5,732 nt of DNA, taken from the IMG/VR virus record IMGVR_UViG_3300045988_011417, positions 1 to 5,732 of that record. One strand, written 5' to 3'. The notes under the pieces are model-generated. The model made no database searches. It had not been told where the DNA came from and saw only the letters and a list, made by a program, of their open reading frames with translations. Both the position numbers and the translations under genes were made by a program. The DNA is from a virus. The number at the start of each line of letters is the position of its first letter. The first letter of the stretch is position 1. Of this stretch, positions 1 to 5,732 are shown piece after piece.

Positions 1-119
1 ATTTTTTTTGTTACGTACCCTGCAACATATCTATAGGTTTCCGGTACTGCTTGCGCTATCTGTATTTGACCCATGCCCCATAGGTTTGCTAGCCATTTAC
101 TTGTGAAATATCCGTTATG
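1..119. repeat. Terminal direct repeat, left copy. It is identical to 5614..5732 and is a circular-assembly overlap, not a biological repeat.
   Basis: Base-by-base comparison: attttttttgttacgtaccctgcaacat...gaaatatccgttatg occurs at both ends. It lies inside the Rep coding frame. Confidence 0.97.
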
Positions 120-1561: not shown

Positions 1562-3241
1562 TTACAGTTTATACAAGCCCGGTACGCTATACAGCGGCAT
1601 CCGTCTCGTGGTTTTGTTTGCTACGCGGATAGCTCCGAAAAATTGCGGCTCATTCTGCACGATCAATGTTCTTGCAACTTCACTCTTTCCTTCTGCCATC
1701 CATTCTTGCGATAGCGTCGGTACTTTTTCGTAGTTGTCTGCATAGTGCCAGAAATCTAGTGTCCCTTCTGCGTTGCTTCTCATGAGACCGGATACACGGT
1801 TAGGCTTCATCCGGTAGTCTGCCCATGCTTCTTGATAACCGAATGTTTCCTCATCGCTTGCTTTTCCGGTTAACATGATTTCTTTCTTTTTTACCGGTTG
1901 CTCGCCCAGATTTGCAAACTGTGGTACATAATAGTCAAGTCTGTCTTTTCTGCTCCAGAAACGTTCCAAGCCTTGTTGGTAACTGTGATTGTGTCGCACG
2001 CAACAGACACCGATTACAAAGCCGTGCTCTTCAAACGATTTGGTAAAAGAGCTTTCATTGATTGGCGTTACTGACATTGCACCGGTTTCACCGATTGGCG
2101 TGTCTTCGTTCGTCTGCTGTCCGCTGGTCTGCACAATCTGGTTGATGTTTACATGGTATCTGCCACCGCCAAGGTATTCCGGCACCTGTACGGTCTTATC
2201 CGAAATTACTACGTTCCACAGTGCCTGTACCTGTTCGCGGTATCTGCTGCCACCTCTTGCAAGTGCTTCGTAGTACTGCTGTACTGCTACGGCTTTTCTC
2301 AGGTCGTTGATGGTTGTGGCTGTTACACTGCTGAGGTCTGCGCCTAGGTATACGCTGTTTTTTCCATTTCCGGCGATTCCTTCACCCTGTAATTGTAATG
2401 GGAAAGAATTTTTTGCTGCTGCTATTGCGTTTAAGGCACCGTTTGTTTTTAACGGCGTTGTTGTTGGTCTGAAACTACTGATATATAAATCAGTTTCGTT
2501 TTCATTTGTCGAGATTCCCTGGTATGCTTTTACCGATGCATTGCCTTCCATGGGCAGCGTTACTTCCGGTCCGCGCTGAGGATAAGGCAGACAGCTTGTG
2601 AAGTAGTCATGGAATTTGTTTACTGGTAAGCATCTTCCGCCTCTTCTTGCTTGCGAAAGAGTTTTTTCCATTGTTTCGCTTTCTGGGCTTTCGTCCCAGT
2701 ATTCCACGTCTTCACTATCTGTCTTTAATACTGCTGGGTTACCTACATTTTCATCCCTAAAAAATTCATTCCATATCATGACGTATGCTCTGATGGGAAG
2801 TGCGTTGATGGAGAATTCTGCATCAACTTTTGTTGGTACTCCCATGTAGTCCAAAATACTTCCTTCTTGAGGTTTTTTAGCTTCTGTCGTGCCTTTGATT
2901 ATAATTTCTGGTATTTTGTATTCTTTTTTCGGGTTCCATGGTGTTTCATCTGCTTCTCCCATGAATCTTTTGAAATCATTCCACAAAATACGGTTAGGAC
3001 AATAGAAGTAGTAGAAGTCAATAAACGCATCGTCCATTACTGGATATTTCGGTGTGCTCATTCTGATGATTGCTGTCGTATCTACGTTGAAGGTATCGCC
3101 CGGTAATACCTCGTCAACATAGAATGGAATCAGCTTGCCGGAGTCGAACGTTGTTAAAATCGTCTGGTCACGGTTAAAGCGCGTTCGACTCGCTTTCATT
3201 TCTGGAATCTGGCTAAAATGCTGTTCATTGTTTCGATTCAC
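1562..3241 (-). CDS. VP1: VP1 major capsid protein (Microviridae F-protein fold family), 559 aa, GTG start.
   Basis: The N-terminus HFSQIPEMKASRTRFNRDQTILTTFDSGKLIPFYVDEVLPGDTF and the internal INDLRKAVAVQQYYEALARGGSRYREQVQALWNV...VPEYLGGG are hallmark Microviridae VP1 motifs. Codon 3241..3239 is GTG, not ATG. It is preceded by AAAGGAGGGAGAAAA, a strong Shine-Dalgarno site about 7 nt upstream. The next in-frame ATG (codon 15) would remove the conserved FSQIP segment. TAA stop at 1564..1562. Confidence 0.97.
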   Translation of the reverse strand: MNRNNEQHFSQIPEMKASRTRFNRDQTILTTFDSGKLIPFYVDEVLPGDTFNVDTTAIIRMSTPKYPVMDDAFIDFYYFYCPNRILWNDFKRFMGEADETPWNPKKEYKIPEIIIKGTTEAKKPQEGSILDYMGVPTKVDAEFSINALPIRAYVMIWNEFFRDENVGNPAVLKTDSEDVEYWDESPESETMEKTLSQARRGGRCLPVNKFHDYFTSCLPYPQRGPEVTLPMEGNASVKAYQGISTNENETDLYISSFRPTTTPLKTNGALNAIAAAKNSFPLQLQGEGIAGNGKNSVYLGADLSSVTATTINDLRKAVAVQQYYEALARGGSRYREQVQALWNVVISDKTVQVPEYLGGGRYHVNINQIVQTSGQQTNEDTPIGETGAMSVTPINESSFTKSFEEHGFVIGVCCVRHNHSYQQGLERFWSRKDRLDYYVPQFANLGEQPVKKKEIMLTGKASDEETFGYQEAWADYRMKPNRVSGLMRSNAEGTLDFWHYADNYEKVPTLSQEWMAEGKSEVARTLIVQNEPQFFGAIRVANKTTRRMPLYSVPGLYKL

Positions 3242-4249: not shown

Positions 4250-4354
4250 TCACTGCCTGTCGTGCAGCACGTGATAAATCTCGTCTAGTTTTTCCAAGAT
4301 TTGTCGCATAACTGCGATTGCGGCCTTGAGGTCTTTAATGCTGATAAGTGCCAT
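4250..4354 (-). CDS. Candidate micro-ORF, 34 aa (MALISIKDLKAAIAVMRQILEKLDEIYHVLHDRQ), amphipathic helix, unknown function.
   Basis: It is below the ORF-track cutoff. ATG 4354..4352 lies 2 nt after the peptidase TAA stop and is preceded by AAAGGGGGTG 7-8 nt upstream. It fills an otherwise unexplained 118-nt gap on the coding strand. TGA stop at 4252..4250. Confidence 0.35.
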   Translation of the reverse strand: MALISIKDLKAAIAVMRQILEKLDEIYHVLHDRQ

Positions 4355-4746: not shown

Positions 4747-4818
4747 TTCCGTCAAGCTCCTTACATCGAGTATTTTGATTGATATATCAGCAGTCGGTTT
4801 TGCTCCTTTGTTTTGAAT

Positions 4819-4832
4819 GGCGCTTTAGCGCC
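4819..4832. repeat. Mini-hairpin GGCGC-TTTA-GCGCC. It contains the 10-mer CGCTTTAGCG, which recurs at 5026..5035.
   Basis: Perfect 5-bp inverted repeat with a 4-nt loop, read directly. A second copy of the 10-mer lies on the other side of the iteron array. Confidence 0.5.
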
Positions 4833-4891
4833 TTGCCGTGCGTAGCGTATGCGGAGCTCGGCTAATCCATTCCTTTTTAGCGCTGTGCGCG

Positions 4892-4929
4892 TTTTCAACA
4901 CTTTCAACACTTTCAACAGGTTTTCAACA
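4892..4929. repeat. Iteron cluster 1: four direct copies of TTTCAACA.
   Basis: Perfect 8-mers at 4893..4900, 4902..4909, 4911..4918 and 4922..4929, spaced 9, 9 and 11 bp apart. Confidence 0.92.
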
Positions 4930-4964
4930 AAATGTTGCACAATGATTTTCGTTATTTTGACGAA

Positions 4965-5004
4965 GTTTCAACAATTCAACAAGTTTTCAACAAAACTTTC
5001 AACA
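4965..5004. repeat. Iteron cluster 2: three perfect copies and one imperfect copy of TTTCAACA, in direct orientation.
   Basis: Perfect 8-mers at 4966..4973, 4985..4992 and 4997..5004. An imperfect ATTCAACA is at 4974..4981. Spacing is 8, 11 and 12 bp. The orientation is the same as in cluster 1. Confidence 0.92.
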
Positions 5005-5024
5005 GTGTTTTTTGCTTTTTATTT

Positions 5025-5036
5025 ACGCTTTAGCGT
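5025..5036. repeat. Mini-hairpin ACGC-TTTA-GCGT, the second copy of CGCTTTAGCG.
   Basis: 4-bp inverted repeat with the same TTTA loop. It is embedded in the near-palindrome TTTACGC-TTTA-GCGTTAAA. Confidence 0.45.
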
Positions 5037-5103
5037 TAAATTTTAGTACTTATCAACTTTTCCACCACCTCTACTACTACTCCTACAACAAGTTAATATT
5101 ATA

Positions 5104-5149
5104 TCGCGCGTGCGCGCGTGCGCGCAATCGCGCGTGTGCGCACGCGCGA
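5104..5149. promoter_or_regulatory. Long GC-rich imperfect inverted repeat (hairpin/cruciform) made of two alternating pyrimidine-purine tracts. Candidate origin or structural control element.
   Basis: 5104..5115 pairs perfectly with 5138..5149 (12 bp). On the + strand, 5116..5124 pairs with 5129..5137 (6 Watson-Crick pairs and 3 G-T pairs). The loop is CAAT (5125..5128). Tracts 5105..5125 and 5129..5148 are perfectly alternating Py-Pu. The flanks are AT-rich. Confidence 0.8.
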
Positions 5150-5204
5150 ATTGGATTATTTTATAGACTGAATAGGTTGATACATGGAGTCTTTAAACGA
5201 CAAT

Positions 5205-5236
5205 AGCTCAGTACCTTACTTGATAGGTACTGGGCT
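5205..5236 (-). terminator. Hairpin about 20 nt downstream of the Rep stop. Weak candidate transcription terminator or structural element.
   Basis: AGCTCAGTACCT (5205..5216) pairs with AGGTACTGGGCT (5225..5236) around an 8-nt loop. That is 11 Watson-Crick pairs plus one non-Watson-Crick position (T-G on the + strand, A-C on the - strand). The 3' flank on the - strand is ATTGTCGTTTAAAGA, which is not a canonical U-tract. Confidence 0.3.
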
Positions 5237-5255
5237 AGGTGACACCATGACACTG

Positions 5256-5732
5256 TTAAAGTGTCCCTTTCTTCTTCATCTGCTTCTTTATTACCCTCTC
5301 TTTCGTTTTGCACTGTTCTGCAAAGTCTGCATTTTCGTACTTTAGTCGGTTTTCTGCTATGGCTGCTGCTTGTCTGTTCTGTTTAATTCTCCACAACCTT
5401 TGTGGGTTTTCTGCTTCCATCATTTTTTCATAATAACGTGGAATTTGTGCGTGTTTGCCGTTTGTGCATTGGATATATCCTTGCCTCCAGATTTCTGCTT
5501 TGTGTTCTTGATAGTAGTGGTCTCCCAGACCTGGTTTAAGGCTCATACATGCAAAAGGTTTTTGTTGTCCTAGTTCGTAATATACGTTTGCTTTTTGACT
5601 GTCTATCTCATACATTTTTTTTGTTACGTACCCTGCAACATATCTATAGGTTTCCGGTACTGCTTGCGCTATCTGTATTTGACCCATGCCCCATAGGTTT
5701 GCTAGCCATTTACTTGTGAAATATCCGTTATG
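5256..5732 (-). CDS. VP4: Replication initiation protein VP4, C-terminal part. Positions 5614..5732 duplicate 1..119.
   Basis: The translation ...GMGQIQIAQAVPETYRYVAGYVTKKMYEID... contains RCR motif 3, Y-V-A-G-Y-V-T-K-K. This has two Tyr residues separated by three residues, as in phiX174 gpA (YVAKYVNKK). The tail is basic. TAA stop at 5258..5256. The Met at 5687 used by the ORF track is internal. Confidence 0.95.
   Translation of the reverse strand, partial: HNGYFTSKWLANLWGMGQIQIAQAVPETYRYVAGYVTKKMYEIDSQKANVYYELGQQKPFACMSLKPGLGDHYYQEHKAEIWRQGYIQCTNGKHAQIPRYYEKMMEAENPQRLWRIKQNRQAAAIAENRLKYENADFAEQCKTKERVIKKQMKKKGTL
5614..5732. repeat. Terminal direct repeat, right copy (duplicate of 1..119).
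   Basis: Exact 119-nt identity with the window start. Confidence 0.97.

What the first reader, a model, noticed from the sequence alone, without database searches (positions are those of the whole stretch)
5086..5150. 44-nt alternating Py-Pu GC hairpin abutting the palindrome TAATATTA: candidate origin, nick site and Z-DNA/cruciform element
**What the sequence shows.** Positions 5105..5148 (CGCGCGTGCGCGCGTGCGCGC-AAT-CGCGCGTGTGCGCACGCGCG) are almost pure G+C in an otherwise AT-leaning genome. They consist of two perfectly alternating pyrimidine-purine tracts of 21 and 20 nt. They fold into a stem of about 20 bp, with a 12-bp perfect base. Immediately 5' on the + strand lies CAACAAGTTAATATTATAT. 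This contains the 8-nt palindrome TAATATTA (5094..5101), which matches 8 of 9 positions of the geminivirus/circovirus-type nonanucleotide TAATATTAC. It shares ATATTAA and AACTTG with the phiX174 origin core CAACTTGATATTAATAAC, although in a different order.

**Why it matters.** A GC stem next to an AT-rich nick motif is the classic HUH-endonuclease origin layout, and stable hairpins are also what ssDNA phages use as complementary-strand origins. The tract should additionally be strongly Z-DNA or cruciform prone in the supercoiled replicative form. It is dense in CGCG/GCGC/GCGCGC/TGCGCA restriction-type palindromes, which phages usually avoid.

**Strand asymmetry.** Three stem positions are G-T pairs on the + strand but A-C mismatches on the coding strand. 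The full-length helix is therefore favoured on the complementary strand.
Basis: partly seen in the sequence, partly recalled or inferred. Interest (0 to 1): 0.66.

Follow-up and report, generated by a model that had tools for sequence, protein, structure and literature searches.

The report
Strand-specific CG hairpin beside gokushovirus origin
The GC hairpin is a real element kept by over a hundred related gut microviruses and it folds well on only one DNA strand, so it most likely helps copy the single-stranded genome; the likely nick site is a different, phiX174-like stem-loop about 75 bases away.

Summary
Positions 5104-5149 form a 21-bp alternating pyrimidine-purine hairpin with three G·T pairs on the window + strand.

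The hairpin is not an artefact. A same-type hairpin sits at the same place in 115 of 153 related gokushovirus contigs. Its sequence drifts by transitions while pairing is kept: A faces T in 72 of 75 cases, and 9 of 16 pairs show double changes.

About 24% of pairs are G·T on the + strand. The hairpin is stronger on that strand in 84 of 85 variants, which neither Z-DNA nor a cruciform can explain.

The nick-site reading is not supported. TAATATTA abuts the hairpin in only 21 of 82 contexts.

The conserved origin-like element is a stem-loop at 5204-5246: ACTTG|ATA, 17 nt, then TGACACC. phiX174 has the same geometry, and 61 of 77 environmental gokushoviruses, Chp2 and SpV4 carry a similar element.

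In this gut clade that element lies on the non-coding strand, the same strand the hairpin favours.

Best reading: a single-strand-stage hairpin acting as a complementary-strand origin. This is inferred, not shown.

Boldest reading not excluded: this clade displaces and packages the antisense strand.

The parts
5104..5149 (+). Alternating (YG)n inverted repeat, the 'CG hairpin'. Arms are 5104-5124 and 5129-5149, with loop 5125-5128 (CAAT). The stem is 21 bp with 3 G·T pairs on the + strand.
   Evidence: for the window. for conservation, A-T compensation and strand asymmetry in relatives.
5094..5103 (.). A/T-only run (TAATATTATA) between the conserved block and the hairpin. The A/T-richness is conserved; the sequence is not.
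   Evidence: TAATATTA adjacent in 21 of 82 contexts.
5204..5246 (+). Origin-like stem-loop. The stem is 5204-5215 with 5226-5237 and the loop is TTACTTGATA (5216-5225). ACTTG is at 5218-5222, with the predicted nick between 5222 and 5223. After 17 nt comes TGACACC (5240-5246). The element lies on the non-coding strand.
   Evidence: covarying stems, conserved loop, fixed 17-18-nt spacing, a reversed-sequence null with almost no hits. (phiX174 origin CAACTTG|ATATTAATAACACTATA-GACCACC). (only copy in the window).
5071..5094 (+). Invariant block CTACTACTACTCCTACAACAAGTT, at the right end of the invertible module.
4893..5004 (+). Eight direct copies of (T)TTCAACA in two clusters, flanking a small hairpin (TTCGTtattttgACGAA). 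They look like iterons.
4880..4891 (.). Mini GC box GCGCTGTGCGCG. This is the left boundary of the module, which is inverted in some relatives. The CG hairpin is the right boundary.
5256..5732 (-). 3' part of VP4, the rolling-circle initiator. It carries the HUH motif HYH and YVAGYVTKK. The gene continues at 118-539 because window positions 1-119 repeat 5614-5732.
   Evidence: (Pfam REP_ORF2-G2P, E = 1.8e-17).

Best explanation
**What it is.** The tract is a conserved, strand-specific DNA hairpin. It acts when the strand that carries the phiX174-like origin (window +, antisense to the genes) is single-stranded.

**Most likely role.** It serves as, or is part of, a complementary-strand origin. 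That is the microvirus counterpart of the phiX174 n' site, the G4 and M13 minus-strand origin hairpins, and the sso of rolling-circle plasmids. A stable duplex stem on otherwise SSB-coated ssDNA marks where host RNA polymerase, primase or a primosome starts the second strand.

**Proposed sequence of events**
1. VP4 nicks at ACTTG|ATA in the loop of the 5204-5237 stem-loop (inferred from phiX174 homology).
2. The nicked strand is displaced (established for phiX174).
3. On that strand the (YG)n tract, a median 78 nt 5' of the nick, folds (shown by sequence statistics).
4. The fold nucleates priming (inferred).

**Shown versus inferred**
- Shown: the hairpin constraint, the strand preference, and the coupling of that preference to the origin-bearing strand.
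- Inferred: the priming function, and the identity of the packaged strand.
For: **Hairpin constraint**
- In 63 unique variants, + strand pairs are C-G 903, G·T 225 and A-T 108. Internal A's face T in 72 of 75 cases, although T makes up only about a quarter of the pyrimidines.
- On a register-anchored alignment, 99.4% of cells are standard pairs. Nine of 16 pairs carry double changes (36 cells), which 0 of 500 shuffles reach. Sliding the partner by +/-2 columns keeps 87-94% pairing but only 1-4 pairs with double changes.

**Strand specificity**
- The + strand is more stable in 62 of 63 variants, by a mean 5.3 kcal/mol.
- The preference follows the origin-element strand whatever the orientation of the neighbouring module: 76 of 77 with the module forward, 6 of 6 reversed, 2 of 2 with no module.
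- The gut set gives 29 of 29.
- The one environmental gokushovirus with such a hairpin (L313) has its origin element on the coding strand, and its hairpin is stronger on the coding strand (-22.4 versus -17.7). The asymmetry therefore tracks the origin strand, not the direction of transcription.

**Fit to known single-strand origins**
- The tract lies in non-coding DNA next to the origin-like element.
- Its structure is conserved while its sequence drifts.
- Single-strand origins are defined as orientation-specific, active only when single-stranded, and dependent on structure rather than sequence (PMC4595007).
- Hairpins are expected to serve for microvirus complementary-strand initiation (PMC9865509).
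Against: - There is no functional test and no sequence match to any characterised sso or n' site.
- 38 of 153 related genomes lack the hairpin, so it is dispensable or replaceable.
- Its position relative to the origin element varies. It is 5' of the nick in most genomes, but about 260 nt 3' in L140, L178 and L197, and far away in L313.
- If the packaged strand is the coding strand, as assumed for all Microviridae, the favoured strand would never be free ssDNA and this explanation fails.
- Perfect purine-pyrimidine alternation is not needed for a priming hairpin and remains unexplained. It may simply be inherited from a (CG)n ancestor that evolved by transitions only.
- The register used for the formal count came from MFE folds, which biases the percentage paired.
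Confidence: 0.5

Rival explanations
1. The tract is a double-strand structural element of the supercoiled replicative form. It adopts Z-DNA or extrudes as a cruciform to tune supercoiling or help melt the nearby origin.
For: - The arms alternate purine and pyrimidine perfectly over 21 and 20 nt in the window, and in every variant seen.
- The tract lies 22-198 nt from the origin-like stem-loop.
- phiX174 A protein needs supercoiled RF (my own knowledge).
Against: - Z-DNA and cruciform energetics are the same for CG-to-TG and CG-to-CA changes. The data show about 225 G·T pairs against about 3 unpaired A's on one strand, and 84 of 85 variants favour the same strand.
- Z-DNA also does not require A to sit opposite T, yet it does in 72 of 75 cases.
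- A central non-alternating loop is conserved.
Confidence: 0.12
2. The tract is an RNA-level element: an intrinsic terminator or a 3' stabiliser for the long transcript that ends after VP4.
For: - On the coding strand the hairpin lies downstream of the VP4 stop and is followed by A/U-rich sequence.
- In L313 a similar hairpin sits right after the VP2 stop, next to a classical GC stem followed by a T-rich tail.
Against: - The terminator scan reports nothing at this site on either strand, and no T-run follows the stem.
- In the mRNA sense, 24% of pairs are A·C mismatches, so selection is acting on the other strand.
- The origin-like stem-loop, which is followed by TTTT or TATT on the coding strand, already lies between VP4 and the hairpin.
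Confidence: 0.1
3. The tract is a by-product with no function of its own: a (CG)n-derived palindrome that persists, expands and promotes rearrangement. It is a recombination hot spot, not a selected element.
For: - It forms one exact boundary of a ~220-bp module that is inverted in L009, L024, L045 and L073. A mini GC box forms the other boundary.
- It is truncated or lost in some genomes (L048, L098, L195, L155) and absent from a quarter of relatives.
- The neighbouring spacers collect other GC hairpins.
Against: - It persists across VP1 divergence down to about 53% identity.
- Its length stays at 39-53 nt.
- Changes are compensated at 9 of 16 pairs.
- A·C mismatches are strictly excluded on one strand.
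Together these indicate purifying selection on one strand's fold.
Confidence: 0.12
4. This is the first reader's version: the hairpin plus TAATATTA is the VP4 origin, with the nick in or next to TAATATTA.
For: - A GC stem next to an A/T-rich motif resembles some HUH origins.
- TAATATTAT matches 8 of 9 positions of TAATATTAC.
- The adjacent conserved block contains AACTTG on the coding strand.
Against: - TAATATTA is adjacent in only 21 of 82 contexts, and inserts of up to 80 nt separate the A/T run from the hairpin.
- The loop is not conserved.
- The block and A/T run are inverted relative to the genes and the hairpin in some lineages.
- A far better origin candidate, with phiX174 sequence and spacing, exists at 5218-5246 and across the subfamily.
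Confidence: 0.03

Closest known systems
Complementary-strand origins of ssDNA replicons: the phiX174 n'/PriA site, the G4 and M13/f1 minus-strand origin hairpins, and the ssoA/ssoT/ssoU origins of rolling-circle plasmids and ICEBs1
   Same: - A non-coding element near the nick origin that forms a long imperfect hairpin.
- It works on one strand only.
- It is conserved as a structure rather than as a sequence (PMC4595007; PMC9865509).
   Different: - It is a single hairpin built almost wholly of alternating CG/TG.
- No RS_B/CS-6-like or promoter-like motifs were recognised.
- It is absent from a quarter of relatives.
- No activity has been shown.
- The strand it favours is antisense to the genes.
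phiX174 viral-strand origin (CAACTTG|ATATTAATAACACTATAGACCAC, inside gene A)
   Same: The neighbouring stem-loop at 5204-5246, not the CG hairpin, shares ACTTGATA, the 17-nt distance to GAC(C)ACC, and a total of 24 nt from the nick to ...CACC.
   Different: - The CG hairpin and TAATATTA share only short words with it, in a different order.
- The gokushovirus element is intergenic and folded as a stem-loop.
- In this clade it lies on the non-coding strand.
Geminivirus/circovirus (CRESS) origin stem-loop with TAATATTAC in the loop
   Same: A GC-rich stem lies near an A/T-rich motif that resembles the nonanucleotide at 8 of 9 positions.
   Different: - The motif lies outside the stem, not in the loop.
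- It is not conserved (21 of 82 contexts).
- VP4 belongs to the phiX174 A / REP_ORF2-G2P lineage.
Z-DNA-forming (CG)n/(TG)n tracts and cruciform-forming palindromes
   Same: Perfect purine-pyrimidine alternation over 20-21 nt per arm, and a near-perfect palindrome.
   Different: The pattern of evolution is strand-asymmetric and constrained by pairing. A duplex-level structure does not predict this.

Membership tests
Single-strand (complementary-strand) origin hairpins of ssDNA phages and rolling-circle plasmids | Extensive secondary structure of the displaced strand in a non-coding region | tested here: met
   A 21-bp stem at -29.5 kcal/mol, z = -5.3. It is intergenic, lying between the VP4 stop (5256) and the next gene.
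Single-strand (complementary-strand) origin hairpins of ssDNA phages and rolling-circle plasmids | Orientation and strand specificity relative to the nick origin | tested here: met
   The hairpin is more stable on the strand carrying the ACTTG...TGACACC element in 84 of 85 unique variants. This includes genomes where the neighbouring module is inverted. L313 behaves the same way on its coding, origin-bearing strand. This is specificity of sequence evolution, not of measured activity.
Single-strand (complementary-strand) origin hairpins of ssDNA phages and rolling-circle plasmids | Structure conserved while primary sequence varies | tested here: met
   There are 63-85 distinct sequences. Nine of 16 pairs show double changes, which 0 of 500 shuffles reach.
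Single-strand (complementary-strand) origin hairpins of ssDNA phages and rolling-circle plasmids | Supports priming or conversion of ssDNA to dsDNA by RNA polymerase, primase or a primosome | not testable with these tools
   This needs an sso assay, such as M13-delta-ori or pHP13-type plasmid ssDNA accumulation.
Microviridae viral-strand origin (phiX174-type nick site) | Conserved recognition sequence (CAACTTG|ATA-like) with a GAC(C)ACC box about 17 nt downstream | tested here: not met
   Neither the CG hairpin nor TAATATTA (5094-5149) has this. The only copy in the window is at 5218-5246.
Microviridae viral-strand origin (phiX174-type nick site) | Conservation of the proposed nick motif across relatives | tested here: not met
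   TAATATTA is adjacent to the hairpin in 21 of 82 contexts. In contrast, the 5204-5246 element is found in 148 related contigs, in 61 of 77 environmental gokushoviruses, and in Chp2 and SpV4.
CRESS/geminivirus-type origin stem-loop | Nonanucleotide nick motif located in the loop of a conserved stem | tested here: not met
   The loop is CAAT in the window and TT, C, TAT or T(n) in relatives. The TAATATTA motif lies 5' of the stem.
Z-DNA / cruciform-forming tract | Alternating purine-pyrimidine run, or a perfect palindrome, long enough for the transition | tested here: met
   Alternating runs of 21 and 20 nt, and an 86% palindrome.
Z-DNA / cruciform-forming tract | Selection acts on the duplex, so the two strands should evolve symmetrically | tested here: not met
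   On the + strand, G·T makes up 24% of pairs and A·C about 0%.
Rho-independent terminator | GC-rich stem immediately followed by a T/U run | tested here: not met
   The scan finds no terminator-like site at 5104-5160 on either strand. The 3' flanks are AATTGG (+) and ATATAATATT (-).

The most novel reading that the evidence does not exclude
This large gut-associated gokushovirus clade has its rolling-circle origin on the strand antisense to all genes, so it would displace and package a negative-sense genome. That contrasts with phiX174 and with Chp2, SpV4 and most environmental gokushoviruses.

The G·T-tolerant CG hairpin would then be an independent molecular record of which strand lives as ssDNA. 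It would also be the clade's minus-strand (here, coding-strand) origin.

**Support**
- The origin-like element is on the VP1 strand in 61 of 77 environmental genomes and on the other strand in 1. In window relatives it is on the VP1 strand in 0 of 52 and on the other strand in 40.
- The hairpin asymmetry follows that strand.

**Not settled**
- Base skew and substitution spectra were not diagnostic.
- No virion-strand data exist here.
Probability: 0.4. Interest if true: 0.8.

Novelty: new variant of a known kind. Interest (0 to 1): 0.62.

Why it matters
**Gap in knowledge.** Gokushoviruses are among the most abundant ssDNA phages in gut viromes. Their cis-acting replication signals are essentially uncharacterised. 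The full-text searches found no description of this hairpin or of a gokushovirus origin.

**What this work provides**
- A conserved, testable candidate for the second-strand origin.
- A relocated viral-strand origin: a phiX174-like stem-loop with fixed geometry that recurs across the subfamily.
- A way to read strand usage from sequence alone, using the G·T versus A·C asymmetry of the hairpin.

**If the origin really is on the antisense strand**
- Positive-sense polarity would no longer hold for every member of the family.
- Strand-specific library preparation, quantification and annotation of gut microviruses would need revisiting.

**Practical use.** The elements define a minimal cis region (about 4880-5250) for building replicons or synthetic phages from metagenomic genomes.

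Tried and rejected
1. **tRNA or known RNA family.** ARAGORN found nothing and Rfam gave only two sub-threshold hits elsewhere.
2. **Promoter or terminator at the hairpin.** Nothing was predicted there.
3. **dif/XerCD attachment site.** I considered this because enterogokushoviruses integrate at dif (PMC7062461). By eye I saw no convincing dif-like 28-mer. No integrated copy turned up in 185,579 representative genomes. The invariant stem-loop gave 0 hits. The block pattern gave one free 5.7-kb contig binned with a Bacteroides MAG and one chance coding match.
4. **Base skew as an indicator of the packaged strand.** The coding strand here is A 37% / T 19%, and phiMH2K is similar. However, genomes with the origin element on the coding strand range from -0.29 to +0.31 in AT skew. 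Skew is therefore not diagnostic.
5. **Substitution spectrum in clusters at 90-95% identity.**
   - On the origin strand, the C>T rate is 0.133 against 0.089 for G>A, and G>T is 0.062 against 0.0125 for C>A.
   - Only a few control genomes were available, all with the origin element on the coding strand. In the closest pair the transversion bias follows the coding strand, and only the transition bias follows the origin strand. In a second group of six genomes the counts are nearly symmetric.
   - The test is inconclusive.
6. **Strand asymmetry of the accessory GC hairpins in relatives' spacers.** They are mostly Watson-Crick, so they are uninformative.
7. **Direct-repeat reading of the two arms.** In some lineages the arms are near-identical direct repeats. 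The A-T compensation and the slide controls favour the hairpin register.
8. **Scan for the hairpin outside microviruses.** My pattern was too narrow. It hit only (CG/TG)n runs in GC-rich contigs.
9. **Block AACTTGTTG as a second origin.** It has no GACACC box at the right distance, and its orientation flips between lineages.

Full report
**1. What the window is.**
- The window is a circular gokushovirus genome (Microviridae). It carries a 119-nt terminal repeat from assembly, so the unit length is 5613 nt.
- All genes lie on the window - strand:
  - VP1 (1562-3241, Pfam Phage_F);
  - VP2 (659-1522);
  - VP3 (Chlamy_scaf);
  - VP5 (Phage_ORF5);
  - a Peptidase_M15_3;
  - VP4, the rolling-circle initiator (REP_ORF2-G2P, with HYH and YVAGYVTKK motifs), at 5256-5732 joined to 118-539.
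- The closest GenBank records are human and pig gut gokushoviruses at 83-87% identity.
- The finding lies in a non-coding region of about 500 nt between the VP4 stop (5256) and the peptidase gene (about 4755).

**2.
- The sequence is as quoted.
- As ssDNA, the + strand forms a single 21-bp stem (5104-5124 with 5129-5149, loop CAAT). Energy is -29.5 kcal/mol, z = -5.3, and 0 of 200 shuffles fold as well.
- The coding (-) strand forms only a 12-bp outer stem plus a 5-bp inner stem. Energy is -25.8 kcal/mol, z = -2.7.
- The three G·T pairs are T5119-G5134, G5118-T5135 and G5116-T5137. T5111-A5142 is a Watson-Crick pair.

**3. It is conserved, and conserved as a hairpin.**
- An alignment with six GenBank relatives shows the tract at the same position, with differences that are almost all transitions.
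- A scan of IMG/VR with a neighbouring invariant 24-mer returned 93 contigs. Nearly all carry a 39-53-nt alternating inverted repeat with a 1-6-nt A/T-rich centre. There are 63 distinct sequences.
- Among 153 microvirus-sized contigs that share the neighbouring conserved block, 115 have the hairpin.
- A (YG)n repeat is self-complementary in any register through G·T pairs. The informative positions are therefore the rare A's.
  - They face T in 72 of 75 cases, although T is only about a quarter of the pyrimidines.
  - On a register-anchored alignment of 32 distinct inner stems, 99.4% of cells are standard pairs.
  - Nine of 16 pairs show changes on both sides (36 cells). None of 500 shuffles reaches this.
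  - Sliding the partner by two columns keeps alternation and 87-94% pairing, but only 1-4 pairs keep double changes.
  - Caveat: the register came from MFE folds.

**4. Strand asymmetry is the key clue.**
- On the + strand, 24% of pairs are G·T (121 of 511 cells; 225 of 1236 pairs). A·C mismatches are essentially absent.
- Every G·T on the + strand is an A·C mismatch on the coding strand.
- The + strand hairpin is more stable in 62 of 63 variants, by a mean 5.3 kcal/mol.
- Cruciform and Z-DNA energetics do not distinguish CG-to-TG from CG-to-CA, so selection on a duplex-level structure cannot give this pattern.
- The 1.5-fold excess of C>T over G>A substitutions on that strand cannot give a ratio of about 100:1 either.
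- The selected object is therefore a single strand with the sense of window +.

**5. Where the nick origin most likely is.**
- TAATATTA is not conserved. It abuts the hairpin in 21 of 82 contexts, and many relatives have 30-80 nt of other hairpins between the A/T run and the CG hairpin.
- The stem-loop at 5204-5237 with its 3' flank is a much better candidate:
  - Its stems covary widely (GCCCAGTACC, GTGGGCCTAATC, CTCCGCCAAGTA, ACCGGCACAAG and others).
  - The loop keeps (T)TACTTGAT, or in some lineages ACTTGT(C/T).
  - TGACACC follows the stem.
- The distance from CTTG to GACA is 17 or 18 nt in 92 of 101 distinct elements.
- The phiX174 record annotates its origin at 4306 within CAACTTG|ATATTAATAACACTATA-GACCACC. 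This has the same ACTTGATA core, the same 17-nt spacing, and the same 24 nt from the nick to ...CACC.
- Similar stem-loops occur in Chp2 (between VP3 and ORF8) and in SpV4.
- The window has exactly one copy of the full ACTTGATA...TGACACC pattern, at 5218-5246 on the + strand.
- A reversed-sequence null gives 2 hits in 77 genomes, against 62 real ones.
- I therefore place the VP4 nick between 5222 and 5223. This is an inference from homology. The fact that A protein cleaves the decamer CAACTTGATA is from my own knowledge of the phiX174 literature.

**6. The origin-like element is on the non-coding strand here.**
- In Chp2, SpV4 and 61 of 77 diverse environmental gokushoviruses, it lies on the VP1 (coding) strand. 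One genome, L307, has it on the other strand.
- In 52 window relatives it is never on the VP1 strand. In 40 it is on the other strand. The remaining 12 fail my strict perfect-stem filter.
- GenBank annotation agrees: VP4 is on the opposite strand in KT264791 and KX513868.
- The CG hairpin's favoured strand is the origin-element strand in 84 of 85 variants, whatever the orientation of the neighbouring module.
- The single environmental genome with such a hairpin (L313) has both the origin element and the favoured hairpin strand on the coding strand. That case separates 'origin strand' from 'non-coding strand', but it is n = 1.

**7. Mechanism proposed.**
- The simplest account of sections 4-6 is that the strand carrying the origin element is the one displaced by rolling-circle replication and present as ssDNA.
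- On that strand the CG hairpin folds and serves a single-strand-stage function. The most probable function is initiation of the complementary strand.
- Single-strand origins are orientation-specific, active only as ssDNA and structure-dependent (PMC4595007).
- A hairpin for complementary-strand initiation is expected in every microvirus (PMC9865509).
- Points against are listed under the best explanation:
  - no functional test;
  - the hairpin is absent in a quarter of relatives;
  - its position varies;
  - the account depends on which strand is packaged.

**8. Tests of strand identity that did not settle the matter.**
- AT skew varies too much among genomes with the origin on the coding strand.
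- The substitution spectrum on the origin strand shows raised C>T and G>T.
- In the closest control pair (L297/L300), the transversion bias follows the coding strand and only the transition bias follows the origin strand. In a second control group of six genomes the counts are nearly symmetric.
- No integrated copies were found.

**9. Surroundings.**
- The hairpin is the right-hand boundary of a ~220-bp module (4892-5103). The module holds eight TTTCAACA repeats, a small covarying hairpin, and the invariant block CTACTACTACnnCTACAACAAGTT followed by an A/T run.
- In L009, L024, L045 and L073 this module is inverted exactly between the mini GC box AGCGCTGTGCGCG and the CG hairpin.
- In another lineage (L105, L111 and others) the block lies on the gene strand and the origin element sits just upstream of the VP4 start.
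- The module therefore works independently of orientation, or as duplex DNA. The origin element keeps a fixed relation to the genes within the clade.
- The quasi-palindromic CG tracts probably mediate the inversion.

**10. Novelty and verdict.**
- Full-text searches found no description of this hairpin, of a gokushovirus origin, or of antisense placement of the origin. The library omits most subscription journals, so earlier mention in the older Chp or SpV4 papers cannot be excluded.
- As an element class (an intergenic hairpin of an ssDNA phage), it is a new variant of a known kind.
The nick-site and Z-DNA/cruciform interpretations are not supported.
- The most interesting outcome is the joint evidence that this clade's single-stranded form may be the antisense strand.

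Noticed in passing
window 5204-5246 (+); also L100-L102 and L255-L334: A stem-loop with loop (T)TACTTGAT is followed 17-18 nt after CTTG by TGACACC. It has the same core and geometry as the phiX174 origin. It occurs in Chp2, SpV4 and 61 of 77 environmental gokushoviruses on the coding strand. In this gut clade it lies on the non-coding strand (0 versus 40 of 52).
   Followed up: yes
window 4892-5103; L009, L024, L045, L073; L105, L111 and others: A ~220-bp module (TTTCAACA repeats, the CTACTAC...CAACAAGTT block and an A/T run) is inverted in some relatives. The inversion runs exactly between the mini GC box AGCGCTGTGCGCG (4880-4891) and the CG hairpin. In another lineage the block lies on the gene strand, with the origin element just upstream of the VP4 ATG.
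   Followed up: partly
window 4893-5004: Eight direct copies of (T)TTCAACA (TGTTGAAA on the coding strand) form two clusters around a small covarying hairpin (TTCGTtattttgACGAA). They look like iterons, and the binding factor is unknown. The 59-aa ORF at 4761-4940 that overlaps them has no Pfam match and is probably not a gene.
   Followed up: no
window 5058-5066: TTTTCCACC matches 8 of 9 positions of the DnaA-box consensus TTWTNCACA (from my own knowledge). One relative, MG945233, has TTTTTCACA, a full match. This may be chance or another repeat variant.
   Followed up: no
window 1-119 and 5614-5732: An exact 119-nt terminal direct repeat shows that the window is a circular assembly of 5613 nt. 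VP4 runs across the junction.
   Followed up: yes
window 4756-4892: This conserved stretch appears to be non-coding. It includes the hairpin GGCGCTTTAGCGCC (4819-4832), which is kept in relatives even where the flanking genes differ.
   Followed up: no
L013, L032, L044, L081, L085, L020, L042, L006 (spacers between the CG hairpin and the origin stem-loop): Relatives carry arrays of further GC-rich hairpins in the variable spacers, up to about -48 kcal/mol. A recurrent ~33-nt hairpin, CGGCGCTTGTGAGCTTGCGAACAATAGCGCCG, lies between the A/T run and the CG hairpin. These are mostly Watson-Crick and show no strand bias.
   Followed up: partly
L313 3350-3420: This environmental gokushovirus has its origin element on the coding strand. 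It carries a similar (YG)n hairpin right after the VP2 stop, stronger on the coding strand. A classical GC stem with a T-rich tail (CCGCCCCAGAGGGCGGAATATTT) follows.
   Followed up: partly
L092, L297, L316: These genomes carry two copies of the origin-like stem-loop. In L092 this results from a local duplication that includes the VP4 3' end.
   Followed up: no
L335 (CAVKUS010000079.1): A 5.7-kb gokushovirus contig of this clade is binned in a 'Bacteroides sp. CAG:545' MAG. This is only a weak host hint. No integrated copy was found in the representative genomes.
   Followed up: partly
gut-clade clusters at 90-95% identity (whole genomes): The substitution spectrum is strongly strand-asymmetric. 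On the origin strand, C>T is 1.5 times G>A and G>T is about 5 times C>A. In other words, most substitution types favour A on the coding strand, matching its composition of A 37% / T 19%.
   Followed up: partly
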